From IMG/VR virus record IMGVR_UViG_3300045988_183539: DNA of 64,000 nt; one strand, given 5' to 3'. The first letter of the stretch is position 1. Each line of letters opens with the position of its first letter. Under the pieces are notes generated by a model. That model was not told the DNA's origin and did not search any database. It worked only from the letters and a program-made list of their open reading frames with translations. The position numbers and the translations under genes are program-made. This document shows positions 29,581-51,943 of the stretch, one piece after another. The DNA is from a virus.

Positions 29581-29660
29581 TTGTTTTTATTCCTTTTTTA
29601 ATAATATATATTATCTTTTTTATTTTTAATTTAATGAAAATCAAAAGTAATTTTATATAA

Positions 29661-29725
29661 ATCGAACGGTTGTTCCGGTGCCGAAAATGACTAAACTAGA
29701 TAAAAAGTTTTTAGGGTTTATTTAG
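29661..29725 (+). repeat. copy B of the conserved ~55-nt element
   Basis: ATCGAACggttgttccGGTGCCGAAAaTGACTAAACTAGaTAAAAAGTTTTTAGGG; overlaps the stop of the - strand gene 29711-30001. Confidence 0.7.
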
Positions 29726-32959: not shown

Positions 32960-33847
32960 ATGAAAGATTGGATAAAAAATATTCATACCATTGATAAGAC
33001 TTGTGTAAATTCTGAAGGGGAATATTATAAATATACAGAATTTAACAGAAAGCCAATATCTTTATATATCGTTGTAACAAGAGATTGTAATGCCAGATGT
33101 CCTTTTTGTGAATATAGAGGAAAACTAAAAAAAATCAATATCAATAAATTTGAAGAAATTTTTATTGAGTTAAGTAAATATTATGATATTACAACAGTTC
33201 ATTTTACAGGTGGAGAACCTACCTTAGAATTAGATACAATTAATGTATTAAGCAAAGTCATAAAAGAAATTTCTCCTTTAACTAAAACAAGCGTTAACAC
33301 CAATGGAATATTCTTAAATGAATTGTCTAATATAGATACAATAGATAATATTGCTTTAAGCAGACACACTATTATAGATAAAGATAATTTTAATATTTTT
33401 AGAACCAATAATATCGCTACATATGAAAATATTTATAATAATAATTATAAGGAAAAAATTCATTTAAGCTGTAATCTTATAAAAGGATATATAGATAGTA
33501 GTGATAAAATATTAGAATATCTTGAAATGGCATCTAAATTAGATATTAATGATGTAGGTTTTGTTAGTCTTATGCATATAAATAATTATTGTGAAGAAAA
33601 TTTTGTAGAATTTAGTAATATAATTCCAAAGGAAAAGGATTTTTTTAATAAAACAAGAGATTATAAATGTATTAATAATAAAAATATAATTACTTGCAAG
33701 TGTGAAAATTATCTTTATAGAGCTAAAAATATGAATTTTATATCAATGTATCATAGATATGCTATTAAGAATAATGAAAAAGCAGATTTTCTTGTTTATG
33801 AAAACAATCATTTAAAACAAGGCTTTAATGGAAATATATTAATATAA
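32960..33847 (+). CDS. radical SAM enzyme
   Basis: CNARCPFCEY (CxxxCxxC) near the N-terminus and a GGEP motif (HFTGGEPTL). GAGGA RBS before ATG 32960 (track start 32945). Confidence 0.6.
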   Translation: MKDWIKNIHTIDKTCVNSEGEYYKYTEFNRKPISLYIVVTRDCNARCPFCEYRGKLKKININKFEEIFIELSKYYDITTVHFTGGEPTLELDTINVLSKVIKEISPLTKTSVNTNGIFLNELSNIDTIDNIALSRHTIIDKDNFNIFRTNNIATYENIYNNNYKEKIHLSCNLIKGYIDSSDKILEYLEMASKLDINDVGFVSLMHINNYCEENFVEFSNIIPKEKDFFNKTRDYKCINNKNIITCKCENYLYRAKNMNFISMYHRYAIKNNEKADFLVYENNHLKQGFNGNILI

Positions 33848-33862
33848 AATAAGGAGATAATA

Positions 33863-34201
33863 ATGAATAATATAAGAGAATATTTTTATGAGGTATATAA
33901 GAGAGATTGGATTAATACACATATATCCAATGAAAGATATATAGGGACTATGAATGAATATTATAAGGAAAAGAAAGATAATATAAATTATCCTGATTTT
34001 CCTTCATTTAAAGACTATATAGAAGAAAATGGTTTTGATTTTGGAGAAATTTATTGTAGTTATGATGAATTTTTGGATTTTGAATATCAACAGAAAAATT
34101 ATTGGAAAAGTTTAATTAATGATGAAGAGATTTATGGTGAATATTTAGAAGATTTAGAGATATTAAAAGAAGAAGAAAAAACGGATAATTTAGAAATATA
34201 G
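33863..34201 (+). CDS. hypothetical 112-aa protein
   Basis: AAGGAG RBS. Confidence 0.45.
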   Translation: MNNIREYFYEVYKRDWINTHISNERYIGTMNEYYKEKKDNINYPDFPSFKDYIEENGFDFGEIYCSYDEFLDFEYQQKNYWKSLINDEEIYGEYLEDLEILKEEEKTDNLEI

Positions 34202-34213
34202 AAAGGAAAAGAT

Positions 34214-34426
34214 ATGGAAGAAAATGTAACAGAAGAAATGATAGACCTGTTAAAAAAAGTAGCTGATTTATGTTGCAAGGCAAGTGAAGAAGTTTATGAT
34301 GATGATAAAGAAAATGGAACAGCAAATATATTAAATTTATGTGATAAGTTACAGGAAGCTATAGATGAATATGTTTTAGATTATGACTGTAAAAAAATAT
34401 TAGAAAATAATGAATTAGAGTATTAA
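34214..34426 (+). CDS. small acidic Cys-containing protein, paralog of 40936-41160
   Basis: EEMIDLLKKVADLCCKASEEVYDDDKENGTANILNLCDKLQEAIDEY aligns with QEMIDILKNISDLCYKASNEVYEDDDKEKGTAKILILCDNLNEVIDDY. Confidence 0.5.
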   Translation: MEENVTEEMIDLLKKVADLCCKASEEVYDDDKENGTANILNLCDKLQEAIDEYVLDYDCKKILENNELEY

Positions 34427-34454
34427 ACAATATATTATTACAAGGAGAAAAAAT

Positions 34455-34601
34455 ATGGAAAAGATTATTAAGGAATTAAAAGAAGCAGGATATGATTATG
34501 GAGTAGCTATTGCAACTAAAGCAGAAATTAAAGCTGGAGCTGATTGTGGTCAATTAAGTTTAATAGTTGAAAAGAGTTCAGACAAAGTGATGAACTATTA
34601 A
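34455..34601 (+). CDS. hypothetical 48-aa protein
   Basis: AAGGAGAAAAAATATG RBS; absent from the track because of size. Confidence 0.3.
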   Translation: MEKIIKELKEAGYDYGVAIATKAEIKAGADCGQLSLIVEKSSDKVMNY

Positions 34602-34617
34602 GATAAGGAGTTTTAAT

Positions 34618-35319
34618 ATGAAACATAATTCAAAAATGATTAATTTAGCACATAGCATATTAGGGACTGATAATAAAAACATTAATTGGAAAAAAATAGA
34701 CAAGCATTTAGATGAATATATAAAAACAATAAATAAAGTTCACACCATTAAAAATAAAGAAACAATTTTTTATATTGTAGATGATTTAAGGAATACTAAT
34801 TCAATTTCGGAAAAAACTAAGAAGATTGTATTAGAAACTTTAGATATAGATGAAAGTCTTTATAAAAATAGTATAACTAAAGACACTAATGATTTTGAAA
34901 GTTATACTTTTGATAGAAATACAAATATAAGTGATTCTGAAATAGATAAATATAAAGAGATAATTGAAGGTAATAATCATTCGGATATAAGAATTAAAAA
35001 TGAAGATATTCAGTCTGCTCATAATAAAAAATATTATGAATATGAATTAAAAGATTTTTTAAATGTATTTACTGATAATATAGAAGGAAATAATGCATTA
35101 AAAGCTTTAAGAGATGGTGATTTCGTTATAGGCGAAAATAAATATGAATGTAAGACAGGAAATATTTGCGGCACACTTTCAAAAGATTTTGTTGTAAAGT
35201 TTAAAAAAGATGATGAGCTTAGAGCTAAATTTTTAACTATCAATTGGACTAAAATAATTAACGAAGTAAACAGTATAAATAAAGAAAAACACAATGATGA
35301 TTTTGATTATGATTATTAA
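34618..35319 (+). CDS. hypothetical protein, paralog of 35361-35801
   Basis: Shared segment INWKKIDKHLDEYIKTINKVHTIKNKETIFYIVDDL...KKIVLETLDI versus IDWIKLNKNLNEYIETMSKVVNIKNKDSVYYLLTD...KKVIFRTLDI. Confidence 0.5.
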   Translation: MKHNSKMINLAHSILGTDNKNINWKKIDKHLDEYIKTINKVHTIKNKETIFYIVDDLRNTNSISEKTKKIVLETLDIDESLYKNSITKDTNDFESYTFDRNTNISDSEIDKYKEIIEGNNHSDIRIKNEDIQSAHNKKYYEYELKDFLNVFTDNIEGNNALKALRDGDFVIGENKYECKTGNICGTLSKDFVVKFKKDDELRAKFLTINWTKIINEVNSINKEKHNDDFDYDY

Positions 35320-35360
35320 TTATTTTATAAAAATAATTATATTAATATAAGGAGTTTGAT

Positions 35361-35801
35361 ATGAAACATAATATAAAGCAAATATCTTTTATGATAGCGT
35401 CTTTTAAAGATATTACTGATTCTTTTGGAGAAAATAAGAAATCTATAGAATTTTTTAAAAGGCAGGTTGAAGGTCTTGTTAATATAGGTCAGTTAAATTA
35501 TTTAGATGTTATTTTATTCTATAATATATTAGATATATATAATACTAATTTAGAAGAAATAGACTGGATTAAATTAAATAAGAATTTAAACGAATACATA
35601 GAAACTATGAGTAAGGTTGTAAATATAAAAAATAAAGATAGCGTGTATTATTTATTAACAGATAATAATAATATATCTAAGCAGACTAAAAAAGTTATAT
35701 TTAGGACATTAGATATAAAAGATGAAGATTATAAAATAAGTTCAAAGGATAATGATATATCTTTTGGTAGTTATGAAAAGAATAATTCATTTTTATATTA
35801 G
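35361..35801 (+). CDS. hypothetical protein, paralog of 34618-35319
   Basis: See above; GGAG RBS. Confidence 0.5.
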   Translation: MKHNIKQISFMIASFKDITDSFGENKKSIEFFKRQVEGLVNIGQLNYLDVILFYNILDIYNTNLEEIDWIKLNKNLNEYIETMSKVVNIKNKDSVYYLLTDNNNISKQTKKVIFRTLDIKDEDYKISSKDNDISFGSYEKNNSFLY

Positions 35802-36489
35802 AGATTGTATTAATGAACATACTAATGAATTAAGAGAAGATATTTTAGGTTCAAGAAAAGAAAGATGGATGATTGGTGTTAGTTGTATGAGTGGTTGTCC
35901 TGTAAGATGCCAGTTTTGTAATACTGGAAAATTAAAAAGGTATAGAAATCTATCTGCAAAAGAGATATATGAACAGGTTGTTTTTATATTAGACAAGCAT
36001 CCAGAGATAAAAGAGATTGATAGTAAGGAATTTAAGATTAATTATACAAGAATGGGAGAACCTTTTCTTAATATTGAAGCTGTAAAAGAAGCTATCACTC
36101 TTATAGACAATGAGCCAAGATTAAAGAATGTCAAGATACATCATTATATAAGCACAATAGGACTTAAAGGTAGTGATTTTAGTTTTGTAAAGGATAATAT
36201 TACTTTACAAATTAGCTTACATAGTCTTAATGAAGATAGAAGACACAATCTTATTCCTATAGATGGACTTATGAGTATAAAAGAACTTGGCGAAATAAGA
36301 ACAGAAAGTAATCTTAAGACAACTGTTAATATGACGCTTGTAGACACAAAAGACTTTGATATTGATATTATGAAAAAGTATTTTGACCCTAAGTATTTTT
36401 TTATTAAGCTTAGTCCTATTAATGAGAATGAGGTTAGTAAGGAACATAATATGGGTAAAGGTATTATTCATAGAGAAAATTTAATATAA
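35773..36489 (+). CDS. RlmN/Cfr-family radical SAM protein, trimmed form lacking the N-terminal domain and the C-terminal Cys-bearing tail
   Basis: GVSCMSGCPVRCQFCNTG...RNLSAKEIYEQV, TRMGEPFLN, ISTIGL and LQISLHSLNEDRRHNLIPI align with the RlmN core. No Cys after the cluster. Start uncertain (35752, 35773 or 35866). Confidence 0.6.
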   Translation: MKRIIHFYIRDCINEHTNELREDILGSRKERWMIGVSCMSGCPVRCQFCNTGKLKRYRNLSAKEIYEQVVFILDKHPEIKEIDSKEFKINYTRMGEPFLNIEAVKEAITLIDNEPRLKNVKIHHYISTIGLKGSDFSFVKDNITLQISLHSLNEDRRHNLIPIDGLMSIKELGEIRTESNLKTTVNMTLVDTKDFDIDIMKKYFDPKYFFIKLSPINENEVSKEHNMGKGIIHRENLI

Positions 36490-36608
36490 CATTTTTTTAT
36501 TATATCTTCTTAAGTTCTTATTTTTAGGATTTAAGAAGATATTTTTTTATATTCTTTTATTGTATTCTATCCCATAAATAGGGTATAATTAATTATAAGA
36601 GATTGAAT

Positions 36609-36698
36609 ATGAATAAATATATATTAATGCATAAAAATATTGAAGTAGCTTTAATGGATTTAGATGAAAATGATAGAAATGCAAAACCAATAAAATAG
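36609..36698 (+). pseudogene. truncated duplicate of the hipA-like N-terminus
   Basis: MNKYILMHKNIEVALMDLDENDRNAKPIK* versus the N-terminus of 39528 (MKDYILMHKNIEVALMKLDENDANSKPSK). Confidence 0.55.
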
Positions 36699-36750
36699 AA
36701 AATATTATTAATTTAGATTAAAAGTAAAAGAACTCTTGAAAAAAAGGGTT

Positions 36751-36790
36751 CTTTTTTTTACTTTTACCACACTATTATAGTATAGATAAA
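36751..36790 (+). promoter_or_regulatory. promoter cassette family member after a hairpin terminator
   Basis: TTTTTTTTACTTTTACCACACTATTATAGTATAGATAAA. Confidence 0.4.
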
Positions 36791-37003
36791 ACTTAATGAA
36801 AAAGTAGAAATATGTGTTTCACTAGAAAGGAGACATAACAATGTATAGAGTCGAATGGTTAGATATGGATGGAGAAATTAAGATAGTTAGAGGGTTTAAA
36901 ACAAGTGGAAAAATGGATTAGAACACACTGTTTTGATTTAGATTTTGAACATCCTATGGTGCTTTATGACGAAAAATAATGAAATGTCTTTGATTGGAAA
37001 GGA

Positions 37004-37192
37004 ATGATAAAAATGGATATTAGAATTTATGATATTGAAAATCTTCCATTAGGTACAAGGGTGACTTTAGTTACTTGTGATGGATTAAAATATCCAGCAG
37101 TTGTATTTGGAAATAGATTTGGATTTGGAAATGGAAGTTATATGGAAATGGAAATTTGCAAAGAAAAAAATATGGCTGTATTTCTGTCTTAG
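37004..37192 (+). CDS. hypothetical 62-aa protein
   Basis: ORF track. Confidence 0.35.
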   Translation: MIKMDIRIYDIENLPLGTRVTLVTCDGLKYPAVVFGNRFGFGNGSYMEMEICKEKNMAVFLS

Positions 37193-37213
37193 AATACATA
37201 TTCCATAGGAGGA

Positions 37214-37420
37214 TTGGAGGAAATCATTATGGTATGGGAAGTAATTATTCACAATACAAAAACTGATAAAATTTATATTGGTGGCATTTTTTCAACATCA
37301 GAAGAAGCAAGACAGATTGTTGAATTATGGAACAAGAAATATCAAACTTCAGAGAAATGGGCTGATTCCATTGGAGTAACGATTGGGGATAGATATATTC
37401 TTGATTGTAAATGCGATTAG
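37214..37420 (+). CDS. hypothetical 68-aa protein
   Basis: AGGAGG RBS. Confidence 0.4.
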   Translation: MEEIIMVWEVIIHNTKTDKIYIGGIFSTSEEARQIVELWNKKYQTSEKWADSIGVTIGDRYILDCKCD

Positions 37421-37524
37421 AATGAAACTAAGATTTACAAGGAAGGAGCAAAAGTAAATGTATAAATATCTATTAGACCGCATAAGAGATGGTAGAGATT
37501 AATAACAGAAAAGGAATAAACAGT

Positions 37525-37914
37525 ATGAATATTTTAACTTTTGAGAATATTGCATTAATAATTATTGTCTGTAGCGTACTTCTTGCTATAGGAATGACAG
37601 TATTTAACCTGCCTAAAATATTAAGCAAAATTTTCTTTATAATACTTATAGTATTAGTATTAGTATTAGTATCTTCTGAAGCATTATTTAAAAATGCAGT
37701 TCCAACAGAAAGCAGGACTGAAATACAGGAAATAATAAGTAAAGAAAGCATAACAACTGTAGAATATAAGGACTTAGAGGGTAATACCCAAAAGACTTTT
37801 ATCAGTGGAATAAAGACCTCTGATGAATATATTCCTTATTCGTATATAGAAACTAAAACTTATAGCATAGGATTCTTCTATAAAGATGTAAATACACTGT
37901 GTCTTAAAAAGTGA
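37525..37914 (+). CDS. membrane protein (two TM helices)
   Basis: AAAAGGAAT RBS before the second ATG; contains the short TATTAG hexamer tandem repeat. Confidence 0.4.
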   Translation: MNILTFENIALIIIVCSVLLAIGMTVFNLPKILSKIFFIILIVLVLVLVSSEALFKNAVPTESRTEIQEIISKESITTVEYKDLEGNTQKTFISGIKTSDEYIPYSYIETKTYSIGFFYKDVNTLCLKK

Positions 37915-38114
37915 AAATAAAGGAGAAATATTTATCCTAGTACTAATAATTTTAGCAGTAATCATCTTAATTATTATAGGAATTATTTATAATCCTAATA
38001 TACCTACTTTAGTAAAAGTGTGGTTATTATCTTAAGTCATTAATATTAATAGAAATTATATAAAATAAAGCAAAATATATTAAAAATAAAAGATTAAAAT
38101 AGGAGAATACGATT

Positions 38115-38357
38115 ATGGATGGCCAAAAATTAATGAATAAATTAAATTACTTAGGTATGGATAATAAAATTAGATTATTAGCTTTAAAGGATAAGTTAGC
38201 AACAGCAAATGATTTAGCTGTTATGAATGAATTAGAAGTATGCAATCTTATTGTTACAAAATATACACTTGTTTATGCTGAAGATGAAGAAATTGGTTTA
38301 GTAGAAACAGAAAAGTTAGATGAATATAAAACCCTGGTAAAAGTAATCAGTAGATAG
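38115..38357 (+). CDS. hypothetical 80-aa protein
   Basis: AGGAGAA RBS. Confidence 0.45.
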   Translation: MDGQKLMNKLNYLGMDNKIRLLALKDKLATANDLAVMNELEVCNLIVTKYTLVYAEDEEIGLVETEKLDEYKTLVKVISR

Positions 38358-38374
38358 AAAGGAAAGTATCTATA

Positions 38375-38911
38375 ATGGGAAGATTAGTAGATATAGATGA
38401 TGTAAAAGCACTTATTGATGATATTTATAAAAGAGAAAAAGACATTATAAATATGGATTATAAAAGAAATGTTATTAAAGACAGAATAGATGAATTAGAT
38501 ACATCTGTTGATATAAATAGTATTGTAAGTCAATTAGAAGATTATGGTAATGAAGAATGTTCTTATTATGAAGGTACTCCATATAAGGGTGTTATTACAG
38601 AATGTATTGGGAAAGCACTTGAAATTGTAAAATCTAATACAAATAGAATTGTTAAAAAAGATAAAAATATTAATAATAATAATAATTCTAAAACTATGAC
38701 TAAAGAGTATATGATGTCTGTAGATGAATTAAAGATGAAATTCCCTATTGGGAGTAAACAGACTATTAATGATAAGGATTATATTGTTAAGAGTATTAAT
38801 GAACCAGTATCATCTAATTGTATGGCATCATTTCCAACAATTACATATGAAGAATGCAATAATAAAGAAATAGATAATGAAACGGATATTGAGGAATATT
38901 TTAGTTTATAA
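38375..38911 (+). CDS. hypothetical 178-aa protein
   Basis: ORF track. Confidence 0.45.
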   Translation: MGRLVDIDDVKALIDDIYKREKDIINMDYKRNVIKDRIDELDTSVDINSIVSQLEDYGNEECSYYEGTPYKGVITECIGKALEIVKSNTNRIVKKDKNINNNNNSKTMTKEYMMSVDELKMKFPIGSKQTINDKDYIVKSINEPVSSNCMASFPTITYEECNNKEIDNETDIEEYFSL

Positions 38912-39075
38912 ATGGATTAATTTATATGAAGGAATGAAATCAAAACGACAGAAATAATTTACATATCACATCAAAAAATGATTGGTGTGGTATTTTTTTA
39001 CTTGTAATGCATCTCCAATTTGGATATAATATAATAAAGAATAGATTATAGTATAAAAGAAAAAGAGGGATTTTT

Positions 39076-39510
39076 ATGTGTAATAATATTTCAAATAATA
39101 TAAAAGAATTAAGAGAAATGACAGGATTATCACAAAGTGAATTTGCTTCTAAATATAAAATACAAAAGAGAACCTTACAAAATTGGGAGCAAGGTATATC
39201 AAAAGCACCAGAATATTTTATAGACCTATTATCAAAAGATATTCTAAAGGCAAATGATATAGAAAAAATATACTCTATTATTGGAAAAAAAGGAAAATAT
39301 ATCTATAATGATTGTAAAGAATGTCTTATAGACGATAAAGGAAACGATATTAATATAAAAATACCTGATTTTGATAAGATAAACAAACATAACTTAGGTT
39401 TATATTGTGACTTTTTATTTGAAGACTATAAAAATAGTGTTGAAGATTTTATAAATCAATGTAAGGGAGATATTAAATCAGATATGATATGGACTACATT
39501 TGATGATTAA
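39076..39510 (+). CDS. XRE-family HTH protein (HipB-like antitoxin position)
   Basis: IKELREMTGLSQSEFASKYKIQKRTLQNWEQG HTH; immediately upstream of the HipA-like kinase. Confidence 0.6.
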   Translation: MCNNISNNIKELREMTGLSQSEFASKYKIQKRTLQNWEQGISKAPEYFIDLLSKDILKANDIEKIYSIIGKKGKYIYNDCKECLIDDKGNDINIKIPDFDKINKHNLGLYCDFLFEDYKNSVEDFINQCKGDIKSDMIWTTFDD

Positions 39511-39527
39511 TTGATGAAAGGAAGAAT

Positions 39528-40781
39528 ATGAAAGATTATATATTAATGCATAAAAATATTGAAGTGGCATTAATGAAGTTAGATGAAAATGATGCTAATT
39601 CAAAGCCATCAAAGATATATTTGAATGAAAAAGAACAAGACCATATTCCTATCGGAGCAAGAATGAATAATATTAAATTCATTAACTGGTGGCAGGATAG
39701 GGCAATCCCTAAAACAAGGCAGGGAGCAAGAACAGCTTTACAAAGATTAGGATATAGTTCAGTTACAAATGCTATGATAAATAATCTGGCTTTAAGTCTT
39801 AATGATTGTTATTGGATAAAACCCAGATATTCAGAATTAACTTGGGAAGAAGTTAATTTATTTTCAAATAATTTTGTTGATGCTTTTGGAGAACTCACCT
39901 TTAACCAAACAGAGGATTTAGATTTAAGAAAATATACTAAGTTTTTAAGTGCTGTTTCACAAGGAGAAGTTCAAAAGAAATGGTGTATAGATAAGGATAA
40001 TCATAGGTATCTTGTAAAAGGTAATTATGGCAATTCTTATCAACAAAGCATTAATGAAGTATTTGCCAGCAATTTTCATAAAGACCAAAATTTTAATAAT
40101 TACACACCTTATTATTTTTGCAATATTGAACTTACAAATAACAGAAAAGGATTAGGATGTTTTTCTTATAACTTTTGTAATGAAAATATTGAAAGTATTT
40201 CAGCTTGGGAATTATTACAAACTAGAAAGATTAAACAAAATGAAAGCTTATACTATCCTTTCAAAGATATATGCTTATCGCTAGGAATCAAAGAAGATGA
40301 TTTTGATAATTTTATTGATTATGAGATTTGTAGTGATTTTTTATTTACAAATTTAGATAGACATATGAATAATATAAGTATTTTAAGAAATCCAGACACA
40401 TTAGAAATATTAGGGTTCGCTCCTATATATGATACTGGAAATAGTATGTTTTATAATGTTTCTACTAATGAATTAAATAATGTTAAGTTAGGACAAGATA
40501 AAACACATTCATTTATAACATCAAAAGAAAATAGATTGCTAAAGTATGTTAGAAATAAAGAGATTATAAACATAGATAAAATTAATACTGATTTCTCAAT
40601 ATACGAAAAGGATATTTATGATGATTTAAGGATTTCTTTATTAAAAGAAAAATTTGAAAGAAAAATAGATTTGTTGCTGTCTTTTCAAAAAGGCAATAAT
40701 ATCTGGGAAGATAATTATAATAAAATATATATACAGAATTATAATAATTCAATAGAAACTGATGAAATAGACTTAGATTAA
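39528..40781 (+). CDS. HipA-family Ser/Thr kinase-like toxin
   Basis: C-terminal catalytic motif LDRHMNN (D-x-H-x-x-N) and FAPIYDTGNS (DFG-like) as in the HipA fold; 417 aa. Confidence 0.65.
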   Translation: MKDYILMHKNIEVALMKLDENDANSKPSKIYLNEKEQDHIPIGARMNNIKFINWWQDRAIPKTRQGARTALQRLGYSSVTNAMINNLALSLNDCYWIKPRYSELTWEEVNLFSNNFVDAFGELTFNQTEDLDLRKYTKFLSAVSQGEVQKKWCIDKDNHRYLVKGNYGNSYQQSINEVFASNFHKDQNFNNYTPYYFCNIELTNNRKGLGCFSYNFCNENIESISAWELLQTRKIKQNESLYYPFKDICLSLGIKEDDFDNFIDYEICSDFLFTNLDRHMNNISILRNPDTLEILGFAPIYDTGNSMFYNVSTNELNNVKLGQDKTHSFITSKENRLLKYVRNKEIINIDKINTDFSIYEKDIYDDLRISLLKEKFERKIDLLLSFQKGNNIWEDNYNKIYIQNYNNSIETDEIDLD

Positions 40782-40792
40782 ATATAAAGAGA

Positions 40793-40832
40793 GCTTATTT
40801 TTTTATAAATAGGCTCTTTTTTTTATATTTAA
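40793..40832 (+). terminator. rho-independent terminator (same hairpin sequence as 44004-44042)
   Basis: gagcttat...ataggctc + T8. Confidence 0.55.
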
Positions 40833-40935
40833 TTTATTTTAAGGAAATTTTAAAATAATGATTAAAAATAAGAATTCTATATATCCATTATTATTATATA
40901 TTTCAATTGTATAAAAAAAGGAGTGAACTTTAATT

Positions 40936-41160
40936 ATGTTTAAAAAAAATGAAAATTTAAGAGAAAATAATAATAATATGACACAAGAAATGATAGATAT
41001 ATTAAAAAATATATCAGATTTATGTTATAAGGCAAGTAATGAAGTCTATGAGGATGATGATAAAGAAAAAGGAACTGCAAAGATATTAATTTTATGTGAT
41101 AATCTAAATGAAGTTATTGATGATTATATAGATAATTATGAAGATATAGAATTAGATTAA
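40936..41160 (+). CDS. small acidic Cys-containing protein, paralog of 34214-34426
   Basis: See 34214. Confidence 0.5.
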   Translation: MFKKNENLRENNNNMTQEMIDILKNISDLCYKASNEVYEDDDKEKGTAKILILCDNLNEVIDDYIDNYEDIELD

Positions 41161-41180
41161 GTAGTAGGTGATATAGATAT

Positions 41181-41645
41181 ATGTTTGATAGATATAAAAG
41201 AAAAAAATATCCTGCTGGATATGTTGATTTATGTAAGTTTGTAAGATTTTATGATGACTGTAGTTATAATGAAAACGGCATAACAAATAAAGATAAATAT
41301 CATTATGAATATCGTAGTTTTTATTTACAAGGCGTTTCAAATGAAGATTGGACTGTTATTAGTCTTAGTCAAGAAAGAGCAATGGATAAAATTTTAAAAT
41401 TTATGTCTGAACATCCAGAAGCAAGAAAAACAGGTTACATAATAGACGAAGAAAGTAAAGAAAAAGATATTCGTTTAACGAAGGCACTTCATAAACTTAA
41501 TATAAATTATAAAGAAGCTTATGAATACAATAAATATTTGGATAATCAAATAATAGCTGCACTAGATATGGCACTAGAACGACAATATTCTTCTGATAAT
41601 GAGAATAATATGAAAGATAATGATGAATATGATTATGATAGATAA
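41181..41645 (+). CDS. hypothetical 154-aa protein
   Basis: ORF track. Confidence 0.45.
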   Translation: MFDRYKRKKYPAGYVDLCKFVRFYDDCSYNENGITNKDKYHYEYRSFYLQGVSNEDWTVISLSQERAMDKILKFMSEHPEARKTGYIIDEESKEKDIRLTKALHKLNINYKEAYEYNKYLDNQIIAALDMALERQYSSDNENNMKDNDEYDYDR

Positions 41646-41727
41646 ATTTAGATAATAATATTTAAAGCAAATAACAATAAAATAAAAACTTATAAAAGAC
41701 ATCTATAAAAAATATAGATGTTTTTTT

Positions 41728-41770
41728 GTATTTTTTTTAACTTTTTCCCATTATTATTATAAGAATTTTT
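41728..41770 (+). promoter_or_regulatory. promoter cassette family member after a hairpin terminator
   Basis: TTTTTTTTAACTTTTTCCCATTATTATTATAAGAATTTT; a second extended -10 TGGTATAAT lies at 41806. Confidence 0.4.
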
Positions 41771-41827
41771 ACAGAAAAAGAGAATATTTGTATTTTTGTT
41801 TTAATATGGTATAATGGAGGAAAGTTT

Positions 41828-43972
41828 ATGTTTAGTAAAAGAGAGACAGAACTTAATAAAAGGTATATATATACAGAAAGAGGATATATGCACTTAAATG
41901 ATGTACTTAGTAAAATAAATCAAAAAGGTCAGATATTTTCATTAAATCCTAATTTTACAACAATAAGATATATAGATAAAAACGAATATGATAATGATGT
42001 ATATGAATATGTTGAACCAACATTTTTTGAGGAAAATGAAGATAATAGTAATGAAGACAATCCTAAATTTATAATTATTTCAGCTCCAGGAGCAACAGGT
42101 AAAACTGCATTAGCAAAACATATATGTCGTAAATATAATGGAATATATTGGGATTTGCCAGATACAAAAGTAGCTGAATATAGTTTTCAGGGAACAATTA
42201 TGGAAGCTGTTGGCAATGATAAAATTAGTTCCTTTATTCAAAGCTTAATAGATGGTTCTAGTTTTCTGGTTATAGATGCATTTGATGAAGCCGAAACAGG
42301 TTCAGGAAGAACAGGTATTGAATTTTTTTTAAGAGATTTTAATAATATTACTATAAATAATAAAGAAACTTGTGCTGTATTATTAGCAAGAACCGAAAGT
42401 GCATTATTTATAAAGAAATATTTTCAGGATAATAATATCTCTTATAATCATTATGAGGTAAGTTATTTTGAAGAAGATAATGCAAAAACATATATAAAAA
42501 ATGGATTAAAAAAGAGAAATATTCCAATTACTAATATTGTAAATGAATGTATAGAAGCTCAGTTTGAAGAAATTAAACGAATATTAATGAATAAAAATAC
42601 TAATTCATTTTTAGGGTATGCTCCAGTATTAAATGCTTTGTCAGCTTCATATGATGAAGAAAGAAATACTTTAAATTTACTTAAAAATACATATAATTCA
42701 GAAAGTAACTGTCATTTATTAAAAGCTATTATGGACTCTTTATTAACAAGAGAACGTGACAAATTTATAAAATCTTTAAAAATAAAGCTATCTAATGAAA
42801 TAAATAATTTTTCTGATGAAGTTTATGGCCCTAAAGAACAGATTTTAAGAATTTTTGGACAGGTTTTGTATAATGATAGTAATTTCTTCATAGAGTCTCA
42901 TAAGGAAATACCTGCTCAATATTATGAAGAATATTTAGAAGCTGTTAATGCACAATTACCTCAACACCCATTCATAAAATCAAAAGACAAAAATGGTCAG
43001 ATTAATTATGAATTTACAGGAATTGTTTTTAGTGATTACATAATATCTTATATGTTGTCATTAGATGATTATAAAGATTTTGCAGAAGAATATGTTTCAG
43101 AAAGAAAATATAATCCTTCTCCATTATTGATAGAGTTTTATACTATTTTTTCTAAAAATACAATATCAGGTAAAAATATAGCTCTTATGTATAATTCATT
43201 AAAAGCACATACACAGACAGGAGATAAAACATATATTTATATAAATGGTGATAAAAATGATTGTTCTGTTGAATTTTTGCTTGAAAGAAAAAATGTAAAA
43301 TACCTTTCTATTGAATTTAATATATATGATATTCAAAAAGGAATTTATATAAATCAGTTATCAAATTGTTATATTGATATTGGGTCTGATGTTTATGTAG
43401 GAGCTGTTAATAGTGAGTCACGTATTTGCAATTCAATAATTAATTGTAATAGAATAATATGGGGTAGTGAGTATGTCTCAATTGAAGCTTACTCTCCAGG
43501 AGAGACTTCTTTAATCTGTGAAGAAATGGGCTATATAACCCAGACTATTCCTAAATTTGAAATAAAAACAGATTATGATAAGAATTTTAAAGTGTATTGT
43601 CCATCATTAAAAGGATATTATAGATTATTACCTTATCTTAATGAAGAAAACAATAATGATAATACTGATGATTTTATTGTTTTTGCAAATGTACTTAGAA
43701 GAATTTTTAGTTGCTTGCGTTCTCATAGTAAAGATGCTCCTGCAAGAAAAATGGATTTCATTGATAATCGTATTATTAATAATAATGAAGCAAAATTAAA
43801 CATTTTAAAATTCCTTATAAATATAGGTTTATTATATACAGATGAACAGGATTGGCTTTATAAACTAAAAACAGATGAATTATCAACATATTCTATAAAA
43901 TGGAATAATGTTCGTGATGGAGATTTTGCTTCTTTGGAGACATTATATAATAAGTATACTGCTAATAAATAA
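41828..43972 (+). CDS. P-loop NTPase, NACHT/STAND-like
   Basis: Walker A ISAPGATGKTA, Walker B LVIDAFDEAETG (hhhhD[GA]hDE pattern of NACHT), long C-terminal region, 714 aa. Confidence 0.5.
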   Translation: MFSKRETELNKRYIYTERGYMHLNDVLSKINQKGQIFSLNPNFTTIRYIDKNEYDNDVYEYVEPTFFEENEDNSNEDNPKFIIISAPGATGKTALAKHICRKYNGIYWDLPDTKVAEYSFQGTIMEAVGNDKISSFIQSLIDGSSFLVIDAFDEAETGSGRTGIEFFLRDFNNITINNKETCAVLLARTESALFIKKYFQDNNISYNHYEVSYFEEDNAKTYIKNGLKKRNIPITNIVNECIEAQFEEIKRILMNKNTNSFLGYAPVLNALSASYDEERNTLNLLKNTYNSESNCHLLKAIMDSLLTRERDKFIKSLKIKLSNEINNFSDEVYGPKEQILRIFGQVLYNDSNFFIESHKEIPAQYYEEYLEAVNAQLPQHPFIKSKDKNGQINYEFTGIVFSDYIISYMLSLDDYKDFAEEYVSERKYNPSPLLIEFYTIFSKNTISGKNIALMYNSLKAHTQTGDKTYIYINGDKNDCSVEFLLERKNVKYLSIEFNIYDIQKGIYINQLSNCYIDIGSDVYVGAVNSESRICNSIINCNRIIWGSEYVSIEAYSPGETSLICEEMGYITQTIPKFEIKTDYDKNFKVYCPSLKGYYRLLPYLNEENNNDNTDDFIVFANVLRRIFSCLRSHSKDAPARKMDFIDNRIINNNEAKLNILKFLINIGLLYTDEQDWLYKLKTDELSTYSIKWNNVRDGDFASLETLYNKYTANK

Positions 43973-44003
43973 TGATAATATAAATAATACAATTGTGAGC
44001 TTA

Positions 44004-44042
44004 TTTTTATAAAAAAATAGGCTCTTTTTTTATATTTGCAAC
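44004..44042 (+). terminator. rho-independent terminator
   Basis: gagcttat...ataggctc + T7. Confidence 0.55.
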
Positions 44043-44098
44043 AATATTATTATATAAATTAATTATTTAAATATGTCTAATGGAAAGGAAGATATAAT

Positions 44099-44449
44099 AT
44101 GTTTAATAGTGTTCCTTTAACATTATTTACAAATACATATAATAGAAAATCAAATAATAAGAGCTTTTTTAATAATGAAAAAAAGATTAACAAAAATATC
44201 AAAAATTTTATATTAGAAGGAGATATTTATATGGATATAAAGACAGATGAAACAGTATTAATGTTTATTGCTGACAATAAATATAGTACTTGGATTTTAC
44301 GAAAGAATGAAGAAACAATAAGTACTGGAGATATATCTGAATGCTTACAGACAATTTTTTCAAATTATGATGTAAAGGGAATTGATTTAGTCCCAACACA
44401 ATTTAGTGAAAGTTGTGTATTGCAGTATTTAATTATGGCTAAAATCTAA
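44099..44449 (+). CDS. hypothetical protein (alternative start at 44231 with AGGAG RBS)
   Basis: ORF track; two candidate starts. Confidence 0.4.
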   Translation: MFNSVPLTLFTNTYNRKSNNKSFFNNEKKINKNIKNFILEGDIYMDIKTDETVLMFIADNKYSTWILRKNEETISTGDISECLQTIFSNYDVKGIDLVPTQFSESCVLQYLIMAKI

Positions 44450-44545
44450 ATGGAGAATACTATGCATACTAACATATAAGCTTTTTATGTTTAAGTATGC
44501 CATATATAAACAGATAAAATAATTTTATTAGAGAGATGAAAAATA

Positions 44546-45136
44546 ATGAATATCGAATATAATATTACTCTAAAATACACAAAAAACAATATTATAGATT
44601 TTTTGTGTAGAGAGGATGATAAAAAATGGTTTTTACATAAGAATGATTTAAAAAATTATATAGAAAAATATATTTCAAAAATTCCTGAACCAATATTAAA
44701 AGCTTTTGATAAAGAAGGATGGAAAATAATTTTAACAAATGAAAACTTAGAAGATAAGTTTGGTTATGATTTTGAAATATATGGAGTTACAGATAAAAAT
44801 TACAAAACAATATATACTTATGCATATCCTGTAGCAATAACTTACGGTTTGGGTCACGAAATAGGCCATTTTGTTGATATATTTTTAGGAAATATTTCAA
44901 GAACTAACCAATGGAAGAATATATGTAAACAACATAAAGAATTATCAGATATGCCAATATATTATTTTACATTAAATAAATGCGAATTTTATGATGAAGA
45001 ATATTTTGCAGATAGCTTTTTATTATTTCTTAATGACAAGACATTGCTTAAAAGATGTAATGAAAGTGCATATAATTTATTTGATAGGTTATTTAATAAT
45101 ATAGATATAATTATAGATATAATATCAAAAGGTTAA
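44546..45136 (+). CDS. HExxH zinc-metalloprotease-like protein
   Basis: GLGHEIGHFVD contains HEIGH; 196 aa. Confidence 0.5.
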   Translation: MNIEYNITLKYTKNNIIDFLCREDDKKWFLHKNDLKNYIEKYISKIPEPILKAFDKEGWKIILTNENLEDKFGYDFEIYGVTDKNYKTIYTYAYPVAITYGLGHEIGHFVDIFLGNISRTNQWKNICKQHKELSDMPIYYFTLNKCEFYDEEYFADSFLLFLNDKTLLKRCNESAYNLFDRLFNNIDIIIDIISKG

Positions 45137-45153
45137 TAAAAAAAGGAGAAAAT

Positions 45154-45684
45154 ATGAACTATAATATTATTATTACTTTAATGTTAATTATTCCTATACT
45201 AATGTTTTGTATTTATTATTGTTTTGCAGGAATAAAAGAAGAAAATATATGGGATAATCCATCAATAGATAGAGGATGTATATGTGCAATTATTGGTTTT
45301 ATTAACTTTGTATGTTTTGTAGCATTTGAGATTAATAATAGTATTTTTACAACCATACTGATTATTATTGAAGTTCCTATTTTAATATGGACTGTATTTA
45401 CAAAATGTTTTAATAAATTTGAAAATAAAAAAAGGTTATATAACGAATTGTTATATATATATAATCAGGAAGATTTAACTGATTTTAAAAAGCATATGAC
45501 ACGAAAAGAACAAATAGAGTTTCTTAAAAGTATTAAGATTGAATGTTTGGATAGAACCAGAGAAGAAAATATAAATAGTGATGGAGAAAAAGTTGTTACA
45601 ACTAAGGATATTTACCAATATATCCCATTAATCGAAAATGAAGAAGATTTAGAATATTGGGAAGATATTTTAAGAAAGGAATAA
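45154..45684 (+). CDS. membrane protein (three TM helices) with soluble C-terminal domain
   Basis: AAAGGAG RBS. Confidence 0.45.
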   Translation: MNYNIIITLMLIIPILMFCIYYCFAGIKEENIWDNPSIDRGCICAIIGFINFVCFVAFEINNSIFTTILIIIEVPILIWTVFTKCFNKFENKKRLYNELLYIYNQEDLTDFKKHMTRKEQIEFLKSIKIECLDRTREENINSDGEKVVTTKDIYQYIPLIENEEDLEYWEDILRKE

Positions 45685-45687
45685 CTT

Positions 45688-45981
45688 ATGACTTTTAAAG
45701 AAGCAAGAAAACAAGCAAGAGAAATAGCTATCAAAATAGACCATTGGTGTTATATGTATAAAGATAGTGGAAAAAATAATTATTACGTTTCAAAGAATGT
45801 AGATTATAGTGCTGACCCCAAAACAAGTTATTATGTACATAAAAGCGGAAAAATTATAAATATGTATCTTTATGAAAAAATAAATAAAAACCTTAAAAAA
45901 AGAGGTATATACACTTATCCATTCTCTCCTGTAATTATGTATCAAGTAAAAAGCTTTAGAAAAGAAGTTTTAGGTAAGTGA
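45688..45981 (+). CDS. hypothetical 97-aa protein
   Basis: ORF track. Confidence 0.45.
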   Translation: MTFKEARKQAREIAIKIDHWCYMYKDSGKNNYYVSKNVDYSADPKTSYYVHKSGKIINMYLYEKINKNLKKRGIYTYPFSPVIMYQVKSFRKEVLGK

Positions 45982-46256
45982 AGGAGCGTTTTATGATAAA
46001 AGACAAAATAGAAGAAATTATAAAAAAATATTATCATTTATCAGATGATTATTATAGTGAATATAGATATGATAAGAATAATATAGAATATAATATTAAA
46101 GATGAATTAGAACAGTTTTGTATTAAAAATAGACTTCTATATAAAGTTAAAAAATGTGTTGACCCAGATAAAGAAGCATATAGTAGTGATTTACTTATAT
46201 TAACATTTATAGATAAAAATAATGAACTTCAATTATATACTATTTATATAATTTAG
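45978..46256 (+). CDS. hypothetical 92-aa protein
   Basis: 4-nt overlap with the previous gene. Confidence 0.4.
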   Translation: MKERFMIKDKIEEIIKKYYHLSDDYYSEYRYDKNNIEYNIKDELEQFCIKNRLLYKVKKCVDPDKEAYSSDLLILTFIDKNNELQLYTIYII

Positions 46257-46743
46257 AAAAATTTTTACAAAAAAGAAAAAATTATGAATAAAAATGATAT
46301 AAAAAAGTACTACATACTACAGTGTGTTTTATTGTATATGGTTTATTAGAGAAAATGGATAATGATTATGTAAGAATTTACGAAAATTCAAAAGATGATA
46401 AATATAGTTTTAAAGGTTCTTATTGGATACATTTTAAAGACATATATAAAACTCAAGATGAGTGTATTAAGGGGTATTAAAATTAAAGATAATATTATTG
46501 TTGATAAATATAAAGCTGAAATTGTTGATTTATATAGTTTTATTAAATTTCCACTTGAATATTCTTTTAAAAATGAAGAATTTACTGATTATAATGCTAT
46601 CAGAGCTTATAAGAAAAGAGCTGCTGGTTTTATATGAGTAATTATATAAGTAAAGATGACAAAAAATATATTTATATCTATTTTATAGAAGAGATGTGTT
46701 ATTAGTAGATTTATGGTTTATTTTTGAAAGGAAAATATAATTT

Positions 46744-47051
46744 ATGAAAGATGAAAATAATAAAAAGATATTGGTTATTTTAATAATTATATTATAAGCA
46801 GCATAATAGGGTTTACTTATTTTATTTATAACTCAAAGAAAACAGCTAAAGAGAATGCTATAAAATATGAAGAAGAAAAAGACAAACCAGAATTTAACGC
46901 TCTTACTAAAGAAAATATTTCTATTTATAAATTATCAGATACAGAAAATACAGAATATTTTATAAAATTCTCTGATACATATTTTGGCTCTAGTAATTAT
47001 TATCCAATAGGTACAAAATTGCCTGAAGATATTATTTTATCAAAAAATTAA
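46744..47051 (+). pseudogene. small secreted/membrane-anchored protein gene disrupted by a frameshift near 46790-46800
   Basis: MKDENNKKILVILIIIL* continues in the +1 frame as SIIGFTYFIYNSKKTAKENAIKYEEEKDKPEF...ILSKN*. Confidence 0.35.
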
Positions 47052-47069
47052 AAAAATAAAGCTCAATTA

Positions 47070-47285
47070 ATGATTATTAATGACAAAGTATTTATGATTG
47101 AAAGTAGAAGAATATCTGGTAGTGCAGGTGATGGTCATAATTGTAGTGTTGGATTATGGAATATAACTGAAATAATAAATGAAACAGATAAGAATAATAT
47201 TATCAATGAATTATTAAAAGATAATAATAATTATTATAAAATAAATACATCTGATTTAGTAAAAGATGAAACATTATTAAAATAA
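47070..47285 (+). CDS. hypothetical 71-aa protein
   Basis: ORF track. Confidence 0.35.
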   Translation: MIINDKVFMIESRRISGSAGDGHNCSVGLWNITEIINETDKNNIINELLKDNNNYYKINTSDLVKDETLLK

Positions 47286-47330
47286 TTATAATACATTTTT
47301 AGAAAGGGATTATTATTAAAAATAATCTCT

Positions 47331-47365
47331 TTTTTTATACTTTAATACACTATTATTAAAAGATG
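47331..47365 (+). promoter_or_regulatory. promoter cassette family member
   Basis: TTTTTTTATACTTTAATACACTATTATTAAAAGAT. Confidence 0.4.
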
Positions 47366-47393
47366 AAAAACTTATTTAAGGAGAAGTTAAGAT

Positions 47394-47603
47394 ATGAATT
47401 TATTAGAGTGTTATGTTGAAAAGATATATTCAAAAACAGATATTACAGAAGAATATCGTAAAAAGGTAAATAACGCTATTACAGAAAAATATTATCTTGT
47501 TGATATGACTTATAATAGTTATGGTTCAGTTACCAGAACAAAAAAGATGATGAGTGAAAGTGAGTATAATAAGATGATAGAAAAAGGATATTTTATAGGA
47601 TAA
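47394..47603 (+). CDS. hypothetical 69-aa protein (first gene of a 4-gene operon)
   Basis: AAGGAGAAG RBS. Confidence 0.45.
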   Translation: MNLLECYVEKIYSKTDITEEYRKKVNNAITEKYYLVDMTYNSYGSVTRTKKMMSESEYNKMIEKGYFIG

Positions 47604-47613
47604 GGAGAAAAAT

Positions 47614-47865: not shown

Positions 47866-47882
47866 AAGGAATATATAATTTT

Positions 47883-48362: not shown

Positions 48363-48378
48363 AGGTGGTATATATACT

Positions 48379-49176: not shown

Positions 49177-49178
49177 TT

Positions 49179-49700: not shown

Positions 49701-49719
49701 ATAAGCTTAAAATATGTCT

Positions 49720-49760: not shown

Positions 49761-49772
49761 GGAGATAAAAAG

Positions 49773-51924: not shown

Positions 51925-51943
51925 AAGAATGATTTAAAAGAAG

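What the first reader, a model, noticed from the sequence alone, without database searches (positions are those of the whole stretch)
34214..41160. Paralogous gene pairs and a hipA fragment record a segmental duplication and rearrangement inside the island
There are three pairs of paralogs: 34214 with 40936 (small acidic proteins), 34618 with 35361, and full hipA (39528) with a 29-codon hipA N-terminal fragment at 36609 that keeps about 75% identity. The fragment lies right after the trimmed RlmN-like gene, while the intact hipBA is followed by the acidic paralog. This implies an ancestral unit [hipA - acidic protein] that was duplicated and then interrupted by insertion of the rSAM/X-family block. 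Terminator hairpins at 40793 and 44004 are also near-identical (gagcttat...ataggctc).
Basis: seen in the sequence. Interest (0 to 1): 0.55.

Follow-up and report, generated by a model that had tools for sequence, protein, structure and literature searches.

The report
Decayed second hipBA module, recombining paralogs
The short hipA fragment is the deletion scar of a second toxin-antitoxin module that is still intact at the same spot in sibling elements, and the repeated genes and terminators around it are points where this variable region breaks and rejoins; this is ordinary mobile-element plasticity, not one block duplication.

Summary
The acidic gene pair shares 81% over 153 nt. The hipA fragment shares 82% over 106 nt with the resident hipA (23/29 aa). 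The 233-aa and 146-aa proteins share 40% over 95 aa. The two terminator stems are identical.

They do not form a duplicated block. The four pairs have four different offsets, and their flanks are no more alike than shuffled sequence.

Near-identical contigs from other gut metagenomes show what happened:
- The hipA fragment is 91-93% identical to a different allele, hipBA-1. That allele sits intact directly after the same radical-SAM (rSAM) gene in three sibling contigs.
- In the window, hipB-1 and 1.16 kb of hipA-1 were deleted. What remains is the promoter/operator, 29 codons, the last ~30 nt of the gene and the terminator.
- The resident hipBA-2 has 83% (HipA) and 59% (HipB) protein identity to hipBA-1. 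One sibling carries the converse relic, the last 46 nt of hipA-2.
- The acidic paralogs recombine in nature: one contig has a hybrid gene and has lost about 6.75 kb.
- The terminator pair brackets a 3.2-kb cassette that two siblings lack.
- The 233-aa and 146-aa genes are complementary truncated copies of a 268-aa gene.

The [hipA-acidic] duplication model is not supported. Interest is low.

The parts
34214..34426 (+). Acidic paralog 1 (70 aa, pI 4.05). The repeated core is 34223-34372.
   Evidence: An ortholog sits at the same position in L011, L012, L047 and L048.
34618..35319 (+). 233-aa gene. It is a copy of the siblings' 268-aa gene that lacks residues ~8-48 (the N segment). It has 54% aa identity to the sibling gene.
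35361..35801 (+). 146-aa gene. It is a second copy of the 268-aa family that keeps the N and middle parts and lacks the C-terminal ~125 aa. Its stop codon lies at the point where rSAM homology begins.
35752..36489 (+). 5'-truncated RlmN/Cfr-like radical-SAM gene (245 aa; siblings have 265 aa). The first 36 codons are replaced by 16 codons read from another frame of the 146-aa gene.
   Evidence: Nucleotide homology to siblings starts at 35800.
36502..36542 (+). Terminator hairpin of the rSAM gene, identical in L011.
36560..36592 (+). Retained hipBA-1 promoter: -35 TTGTAT (36560-36565), palindromic operator-like CCCATAAATAGGG (36571-36583), -10 TATAAT (36584-36589). Deletion junction A lies at 36588-36592 (ATTAA microhomology); there the ~466-nt hipB-1 gene is missing.
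   Evidence: The region is near-identical to L011 upstream of hipB-1.
36593..36695 (+). hipA-1 ribosome-binding site and first 29 codons (ORF 36609-36698). It is 98/108 nt identical to L011 hipA-1 and 25/29 aa to the P0004-P0007 allele. Junction B at 36690-36695 is out of frame and creates the TAG stop.
36696..36806 (+). Last ~30 nt of hipA-1 (former stop TAA at 36719-36721), its terminator (36726-36755) and downstream spacer. 109/117 nt identical to L011.
36841..36921 (+). Frameshifted relic of the siblings' 48-aa gene. An 8-nt deletion truncates it to 26 codons.
36490..38344 (+). The 1.85-kb segment absent from siblings L001, L002, L003, L005, L006 and L008. It holds the scar, the 59-aa, DUF7336, 129/141-aa and 80-aa genes. 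It is homologous, with gaps, to the region downstream of hipBA-1 in L011/L012.
38375..38911 (+). 178-aa gene. It is absent in L046/L047 and reduced to a C-terminal relic in L011.
39002..39030 (+). hipBA-2 promoter: -35 TTGTAA, palindrome TCCAATTTGGA (39014-39024), -10 TATAAT. The layout matches the hipBA-1 promoter but the palindrome differs.
39076..39510 (+). hipB-2, an HTH_3 antitoxin-like gene (144 aa; 59% identical to HipB-1).
39528..40781 (+). hipA-2, an intact HipA-fold kinase gene (417 aa; 83% identical to HipA-1).
40791..40830 (+). Left copy of the terminator repeat (GAGCTTAT...ATAGGCTC).
40936..41160 (+). Acidic paralog 2 (74 aa, pI 4.11). The repeated core is 40975-41127.
40831..43996 (+). 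The 3.2-kb cassette (74-aa, 154-aa and 714-aa P-loop genes) bracketed by the terminator repeats. It is missing in L003, L007, L046 and L047.
43997..44037 (+). Right copy of the terminator repeat.

Best explanation
Window 34.2-44.0 kb is a variable, one-strand array of accessory genes. It lies in a large AT-rich (24% GC) element of the type carried by gut Firmicutes. That element encodes a CD1110-type VirB4, so it is conjugative or carries an integrated conjugative element.

Shown:
- The hipA fragment is a double-deletion scar of a separate hipBA module, hipBA-1. That module stands intact immediately after the RlmN-like rSAM gene in sibling elements.
- One deletion of about 466 nt (ATTAA microhomology) removed hipB-1 and fused the promoter/operator to the hipA-1 ribosome-binding site.
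- A second, out-of-frame deletion of 1,156 nt removed hipA-1 codons 30 to about 414. It left the last ~30 nt and the terminator.
- Neighbouring genes are also decayed: the 48-aa gene is frameshifted, the 186-aa gene is gone, and the rSAM 5' end is lost.
- Most siblings have lost the whole 1.85-kb segment.
- The intact module 2.4 kb downstream is a diverged relative, hipBA-2. It has a different operator palindrome.

Inferred: one element once carried both modules, and each lineage kept one. L011 retains the last 46 nt of hipA-2 as non-coding DNA in front of the terminator and the 74-aa gene.

The other 'paralog pairs' are independent and older:
- The two acidic genes share only a 150-nt core and each keeps its own position in relatives. 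They act as direct repeats for homologous recombination, seen as a hybrid gene with about 6.75 kb lost in L045.
- The two terminators bracket a 3.2-kb cassette that is lost by crossover inside the hairpin in L003/L007.
- The 233-aa and 146-aa genes are complementary truncated tandem copies of the siblings' 268-aa gene.
For: Independent assemblies. L004 is 100% identical to the window over 21 kb. L010, from another sample, is 100% identical over 8.35 kb.

Scar anatomy.
- Window 36440-36592 matches the L011 rSAM end, terminator and hipBA-1 promoter.
- 36588-36695 matches the hipA-1 start at 98/108 nt.
- 36690-36806 matches the hipA-1 end and terminator at 109/117 nt.
- The fragment peptide matches the hipA-1 allele at 25/29 and hipA-2 at 23/29.

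hipBA position in relatives. hipBA-1 is intact directly after the rSAM gene in L011, L012 and L042.

Converse relic. L011 has 42/46 nt of the hipA-2 3' end after the stop codon of an unrelated 235-aa gene.

Indels and junctions.

Natural recombinants.
- The hybrid acidic gene sits in the context 112aa-hybrid-154-714. The longest exact match between the two paralogs is 17 nt.
- L048 carries a chimeric hipA, hipA-2-like for residues 1-300 and hipA-1-like (56/57) for residues 361-420.

No block duplication. The flanks are random and the offsets differ.

hipBA identity.
- The model's best fold matches are CtkA, HipA and HipT.
- D277-R-H-x-N-N282 and D302 are invariant in the homolog alignment.
- The upstream gene has an HTH_3 domain.
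Against: - No contig was found with both hipBA modules intact. Coexistence in one element is therefore inferred from scars only.
- L046/L047 carry the hipBA-2 allele directly after the rSAM gene. The two 'sites' could be one locus with variable insertions, and the mosaic could come from exchange between elements.
- The direction of several indels (deletion or insertion) rests on a few comparators, not on a rooted phylogeny.
- The hybrid acidic gene is seen on one short Logan contig.
- HipA membership by sequence is weak for this protein: Pfam HipA_C gives 21.6 bits against a cutoff of 30.5, and there is no NCBIfam or PDB sequence hit.
- Toxicity was not tested.
Confidence: 0.8

Rival explanations
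1. An ancestral [hipA - acidic gene] unit was duplicated as a segment. One copy was then interrupted and trimmed by insertion of the rSAM/X-family block.
For: The acidic pair (81% nt) and the hipA pair (79-82% nt) have similar divergence. hipA-2 is followed by acidic-2 in the window and many siblings, and that adjacency is old, as the hipA-2 relic in L011 shows.
Against: The order is not collinear, and the offsets differ (+6752 and +2918). The flanks are random. The fragment belongs to the hipA-1 allele. rSAM followed by hipBA is the conserved arrangement in five relatives. Acidic-1 is preceded by the 112-aa gene or by rSAM300, never by hipA.
Confidence: 0.04
2. The two hipBA modules were never intact together in one element. 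hipBA-1 and hipBA-2 are alleles of one locus in different lineages. The window and L011 are mosaics made by recombination between co-resident sibling elements, which brought in segments that were already scarred.
For: L046/L047 have hipBA-2 directly after the rSAM gene, the same position as hipBA-1 in L011. L048 has a chimeric hipA-2/hipA-1 gene and a mosaic downstream region. The 233/146 block is only ~72% identical to siblings, inside flanks that are 97-99% identical.
Against: The window and L011 are collinear across rSAM, site 1, the 59-aa, DUF7336 and 141-aa genes, the 178-aa relic, site 2 and the 74-aa gene, and they carry complementary scars. This is explained most simply by an ancestor with two modules.
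Confidence: 0.3
3. The 29-codon ORF is a maintained functional unit. It would be either an expressed peptide from the HipA N terminus or an orphan HipB operator that modulates the resident hipBA-2.
For: The promoter with -35, -10 and palindrome, the ribosome-binding site, the ATG and the terminator are all intact. In HipBST, a separate protein equivalent to HipA N-subdomain 1 is the antitoxin (PMC8262856).
Against: The ORF ends because of an out-of-frame deletion junction. The 29 aa cover only two beta-strands of the model. The palindrome differs from that of hipBA-2. The neighbouring genes are decayed. The arrangement is seen on only 3 contigs, against 22 that carry this exact HipA-2 protein, and the siblings examined (L001-L003, L005, L006, L008) lack it entirely.
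Confidence: 0.04
4. The similarities or the variant junctions are assembly artefacts.
For: All comparators are metagenome assemblies. L045 is a 3.4-kb Logan contig.
Against: The window arrangement was recovered identically from at least two samples. The L003-type junction is seen in L003, L007, L046 and L047 from different projects. The paralogs share at most 17 exact nt, too few for a k=31 graph jump.
Confidence: 0.03

Closest known systems
hipBA type II toxin-antitoxin modules (HipA Ser/Thr kinase with HipB HTH repressor), as surveyed in PMC8262856
   Same: The gene order is an HTH gene followed 17 nt later by a ~420-aa kinase. The model has a HipA/CtkA/HipT fold. A DxHxxN-type catalytic motif and a downstream Asp are invariant. 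The promoter has a palindrome between -35 and -10. The module sits on a mobile element.
   Different: The sequence is too divergent for the Pfam HipA_C cutoff, NCBIfam or PDB sequence searches. HipB has a ~90-aa C-terminal extension. Neither the kinase target nor toxicity is known.
Toxin-antitoxin pseudogene relics and displacement of one TA module by a related one (the 'anti-addiction' or TA-competition idea; from my own knowledge, not checked in a paper here)
   Same: One module is intact and a related one is reduced to a scar. The antitoxins are much more diverged than the toxins (59% against 83%), and the operator palindromes differ.
   Different: Cross-neutralisation and the order of events are unknown. 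Here complementary scars are seen in two sibling lineages.
Repeat-mediated deletion in plasmid and ICE accessory regions (homologous recombination between short direct repeats)
   Same: A 150-nt repeat at 81% identity and a 42-nt repeat at 88% identity flank segments that are missing in natural variants, with crossovers inside the repeats.
   Different: The repeats are a pair of paralogous small genes and a pair of intrinsic terminators, not insertion sequences or dedicated recombination sites.
Integron cassette arrays (attC hairpins)
   Same: Small genes on one strand, a TA module, and hairpin repeats at cassette ends.
   Different: Only two copies of the hairpin exist. Both have T-tails typical of terminators. 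No integrase or attC structure was seen. The resemblance is superficial.

Membership tests
HipA-family kinase toxin (hipBA) | HipA_C (PF07804) domain above Pfam's gathering score | tested here: not met
   21.6 bits against a cutoff of 30.5, covering residues 257-332. Most homologous cluster representatives do carry a precomputed PF07804 hit.
HipA-family kinase toxin (hipBA) | HipA/CtkA kinase fold | tested here: met
   The AlphaFold model has pLDDT 72 and pTM 0.77. The top Foldseek PDB hits are CtkA 3akk, HipA 4pu5/3dnu/3tpe and HipT 7ab3, at E 1e-6 to 1e-4 and TM 0.43-0.6.
HipA-family kinase toxin (hipBA) | [quoted passage not shown] | tested here: inconclusive
   Q145-G-E-x-Q-K-K151, D277-R-H-M-N-N282 and D302 are invariant in 25 homologs. 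They lie in or near the stretch matched by HipA_C. They were not aligned residue by residue to E. coli HipA.
HipA-family kinase toxin (hipBA) | Upstream HTH (HipB-like) gene in the same operon, with an autoregulatory operator | tested here: met
   HTH_3 hit at 28.3 bits, above the cutoff of 23. The gap between the genes is 17 nt. A palindrome lies between -35 and -10. Binding was not tested.
HipA-family kinase toxin (hipBA) | Growth arrest by the kinase, neutralised by the antitoxin | not testable with these tools
   Needs expression experiments.
Segmental (block) duplication | Several similar features in the same order with one common offset | tested here: not met
   The offsets are +6752, +2918, +878 and +3206, and the order is reversed for acidic/hipA.
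Segmental (block) duplication | Similarity that extends into the flanks of the gene pairs | tested here: not met
   500-nt flanks scored at or below the mean of 300 shuffles. The cores were reached by 0 of 300 shuffles.
Gene relic / deletion scar | An intact counterpart at the same position in close relatives, with homology on both sides | tested here: met
   L011, L012 and L042 have rSAM-hipB1-hipA1. The window matches both flanks and both gene ends.
Gene relic / deletion scar | Loss of coding capacity (frame disruption or missing domains) | tested here: met
   The 1,156-nt internal deletion is out of frame and puts a TAG at the junction. hipB-1 is absent.
Integron cassette array | Integrase plus multiple attC sites at cassette ends | tested here: not met
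   The hairpin pattern occurs only twice, each time with a T-tail. No integrase was seen among the ORFs scanned. The window was not searched exhaustively for one.

The most novel reading that the evidence does not exclude
An ancestral element carried two insulated hipBA paralogs about 5 kb apart. Sibling lineages then lost one each, leaving complementary scars. This would be a natural record of one toxin-antitoxin module displacing or substituting for a related one. The surviving HipB may have cross-neutralised the other toxin and so allowed the loss of hipB-1. The retained promoter, operator and 29-codon ORF could then still be active as an orphan regulatory or peptide unit.
Probability: 0.25. 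Interest if true: 0.4.

Novelty: new member of a known kind. Interest (0 to 1): 0.22.

Why it matters
The work mainly corrects the reading of the region. The hipA fragment and the paralog pairs are not evidence of one duplication event. They are a TA-module scar plus independent repeats that drive deletions.

The complementary hipBA scars, the natural chimeric hipA and the hybrid acidic gene together give a small, clean example of how accessory regions of large conjugative elements turn over. They also show how related TA modules replace one another.

The host element may be of more interest than the finding itself. It belongs to a family with 24-31% GC and contigs of 230-530 kb in human gut metagenomes. 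It was not found in the PLSDB, INPHARED or IMG/VR copies searched.

Tried and rejected
- Permissive self-blastn suggested a 713-nt similarity, 33730-34399 vs 40452-41154 at 62%. This was AT-rich extension around the 150-nt core. The flanks alone score below the shuffle mean.
- The L011 235-aa gene that precedes acidic-2 was tested as a possible hipA remnant. It shows no similarity. Only the 46 nt after its stop codon are hipA-2-derived.
- Megablast of 30-46 kb against plasmids gave no match. Against phages it gave only an 83% match to the flotillin gene in an unannotated faecal contig.
- An IMG/VR scan for HipA relatives found none.
- PDB sequence searches with HipA-2 alone and with a 25-sequence profile gave no HipA hit. 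NCBIfam gave no hit. The family assignment therefore rests on fold and motifs.
- The integron-like cassette idea was rejected because only two hairpin copies exist and they look like terminators.
- The Hodor megaplasmids (PMC12934698) were rejected as the host element, because they have 44-47% GC against 24% here.
- Rfam found no family in the window.
- A search for more acidic paralogs found only two per element and only four clusters in the 5.8-billion-protein set.


Full report
**Context**

The window has 24% GC, and nearly all its genes lie on the + strand. It encodes:
- a CD1110-type VirB4-like conjugation ATPase at 749-3217; about 35% identical to annotated homologs on plasmids of Firmicutes;
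- a T2SSE-type ATPase;
- an Amidase_3 protein;
- two Dda/PIF1-like helicases.

There are no tRNAs and no Rfam families. The region is therefore part of a large conjugative element, or of a chromosome that carries one. The exact HipA protein of the window occurs on 22 public metagenome contigs, up to 470 kb long. L004 (ENA ERZ28576021, 469,594 bp) is 100% identical to window 29528-50781. L010, from another sample, is 100% identical over 8,352 nt. The arrangement is therefore not an assembly accident.

**Checking the observation**

Strict self-blastn finds the acidic pair (34223-34372 vs 40975-41127; 81% over 153 nt; 144 bits). It also finds the hipA pair (36585-36689 vs 39503-39608; 82% over 106 nt; 103 bits) and the terminator pair (40791-40830 vs 43997-44037; 88% over 42 nt; 48 bits).

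In 30 dinucleotide-preserving shuffles the best chance hit scored 39-53 bits. The first two pairs are far above chance. The terminator pair is not above chance by score, but its stem pattern occurs exactly twice against 0 expected.

At protein level:
- acidic pair, 35/54 identical;
- 233-aa vs 146-aa, 38/95 identical;
- fragment vs HipA residues 1-29, 23/29 identical.

**Is it a segmental duplication?**

It is not. The four similarities have four different offsets, and the order is not collinear. Acidic-1 lies 2.2 kb upstream of the fragment, whereas acidic-2 lies downstream of hipA. The 500-nt flanks on either side of the acidic core, and upstream of the hipA core, score at or below the mean of 300 shuffles. 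A 713-nt alignment from a permissive search was extension noise in AT-rich DNA.

**What the hipA fragment is**

The fragment peptide is closer to another allele, P0004-P0007 (25/29), than to the resident gene (23/29). I call that allele hipA-1 and the resident gene hipA-2. HipA-1 is 83% identical to HipA-2, and HipB-1 is 59% identical to HipB-2.

hipBA-1 stands intact directly after the same rSAM gene in sibling contigs L011 (378,682 bp), L012 and L042. Alignment with L011 shows the anatomy of the scar:
- Window 36440-36592 equals the end of the L011 rSAM gene, its terminator and the hipBA-1 promoter (-35 TTGTAT, a palindrome, -10 TATAAT).
- At 36588-36592 (ATTAA microhomology) about 466 nt holding hipB-1 are missing.
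- 36588-36695 is the hipA-1 ribosome-binding site plus 29 codons (98/108 nt).
- At 36690-36695 a further 1,156 nt of hipA-1 are missing. This deletion is out of frame, which creates the TAG that ends the 29-codon ORF.
- 36696-36806 is the last ~30 nt of hipA-1, its terminator and the downstream spacer (109/117 nt).

The 3' piece also shows residual similarity to the 3' end of hipA-2, reached by 0 of 300 shuffles.

Beyond the scar, window 36826-37206 and 37500-37931 match the genes downstream of hipBA-1 in L011/L012 at 83-97%. Several neighbours are decayed as well:
- the 186-aa gene is absent;
- the 48-aa gene has an 8-nt frameshifting deletion;
- the rSAM gene has lost its first 36 codons.

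Siblings L001, L002, L003, L005, L006 and L008 lack the whole of 36490-38344. Only 3 contigs carry it.

**The converse relic, and how firm the two-module inference is**

In L011 the 74-aa acidic gene and its terminator are preceded by an unrelated 235-aa gene. However, the 46 nt after that gene's stop codon are 42/46 identical to the last 15 codons of hipA-2. L011 also keeps a C-terminal relic of the 178-aa gene at the matching place.

The window and L011 are thus collinear across this order of features, with complementary scars:

rSAM, site 1, the 59-aa / DUF7336 / 141-aa genes, the 178-aa gene, site 2, terminator, 74-aa gene.

This suggests an ancestor with two modules and reciprocal loss. 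That is an inference, for three reasons:
- No contig has both modules intact.
- L046/L047 carry the hipBA-2 allele directly after the rSAM gene.
- L048 has a chimeric hipA. It is hipA-2-like for residues 1-300 and hipA-1-like (56/57) for residues 361-420, with the hipA-1 terminator.

Exchange of alleles between co-resident elements is therefore a live alternative.

**The other pairs**

The acidic proteins (70 and 74 aa, pI about 4.1) are similar only in a 150-nt core. Each element has only two copies, and each copy holds its own position in L011, L012, L047 and L048. Homologs fall into only four clusters in the large protein set. Of 53 aligned codons, 30 are identical, 5 differ synonymously and 18 non-synonymously. 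One of those clusters, P0123, is a hybrid with the 5' part of the 70-aa gene and the 3' part of the 74-aa gene. On contig L045 the gene order is 112aa-hybrid-154-714, so about 6.75 kb including hipBA-2 is gone. The paralogs share at most 17 exact nt, so a k-mer assembly jump is unlikely.

The terminator pair brackets 40831-43996, which holds the 74-aa, 154-aa and 714-aa genes. L003 and L007 lack this cassette, and their junction is a crossover inside the hairpin. L046/L047 also go from hipA-2 to the 116-aa gene.

The siblings' 268-aa gene aligns with both genes of the third pair. The 233-aa gene lacks residues ~8-48. The 146-aa gene keeps them but lacks the C-terminal ~125 aa and abuts the truncated rSAM gene. 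Both are only about 50% identical to the sibling gene, inside flanks that are 97-99% identical. This block is therefore an old or imported divergent variant, not a recent duplication.

**Is it really hipBA?**

By sequence the evidence is weak:
- Pfam HipA_C gives 21.6 bits, below the 30.5 cutoff.
- There is no NCBIfam hit.
- There is no PDB sequence hit, even with a profile.

Other evidence supports the assignment:
- Most of the 917 homologs carry PF07804.
- A model (pLDDT 72, pTM 0.77) finds CtkA, HipA and HipT as its best structural matches.
- D277-R-H-x-N-N282 and D302 are invariant in the homolog alignment.
- The upstream gene has an HTH_3 domain.
- Both promoters carry a palindrome between -35 and -10, and the two palindromes differ.

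The criteria used for the family are those in PMC8262856. Toxicity is untested.

**Verdict**

What is present is a TA-module scar and repeat-mediated turnover in a mosaic accessory region. That is a known kind of event, seen here in an undescribed element family.

Noticed in passing
window 13432-13536, 29657-29724, 58287-58389: A ~45-nt motif, CGAACATnTGTT..GGTGCCGAAAnTGACTAAACTAGnAAA, occurs three times on the + strand. One copy lies inside the 890-aa helicase ORF. It has no Rfam match. It could be a regulatory or origin-type site.
   Followed up: partly
whole window; L004, L011, L048, L051-L054: The host is a family of very AT-rich elements (24-31% GC) on contigs of 230-533 kb from human gut metagenomes. 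The genes seen include a CD1110-type VirB4, a flotillin, RuvC, Thg1, several rSAM genes and long one-strand arrays of small unknown genes. It was absent from the PLSDB, INPHARED and IMG/VR copies searched. It is distinct from the Hodor megaplasmids (44-47% GC). Whether it is a plasmid or a chromosome is not settled.
   Followed up: partly
L002 13090-13092 (window 42619/57526): Sibling L002 lacks window 42620-57525 (15 kb). The junction has a 3-nt microhomology and joins the 5' part of the 714-aa P-loop gene to the 3' part of the 890-aa helicase gene.
   Followed up: partly
L001 and L003, 7959-8757: In these siblings the RlmN-like rSAM gene is called as two ORFs (93 and 145 aa) instead of one of 265 aa. 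This gene appears to be decaying in several lineages.
   Followed up: no
window 39528-40781 and 48325-49176: HipA-2 matches the PADLOC candidate defence family PDC-M03A (E 1.4e-15). The rSAM gene at 48325 weakly matches prokaryotic viperin models (E 1.8e-9).
   Followed up: no
window 26018-27286 and 57002-59674: Two Dda/PIF1-like helicase genes are paralogous (26312-26461 vs 58745-58894, 70% nt). This is another dispersed gene pair in the window.
   Followed up: no
window 11911-11987 vs 12532-12608: An internal repeat, 82% over 77 nt, lies within the 615-aa ORF 11506-13353. Further weaker copies suggest a repetitive protein.
   Followed up: no
window 36752-36790 vs 53250-53286; 41678-41761 vs 53203-53280: Intergenic sequence near 53.2 kb resembles the spacer after the hipA-1 terminator (90% over 39 nt) and the region after the 154-aa gene. 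These may be further recombination-prone intergenic repeats.
   Followed up: no
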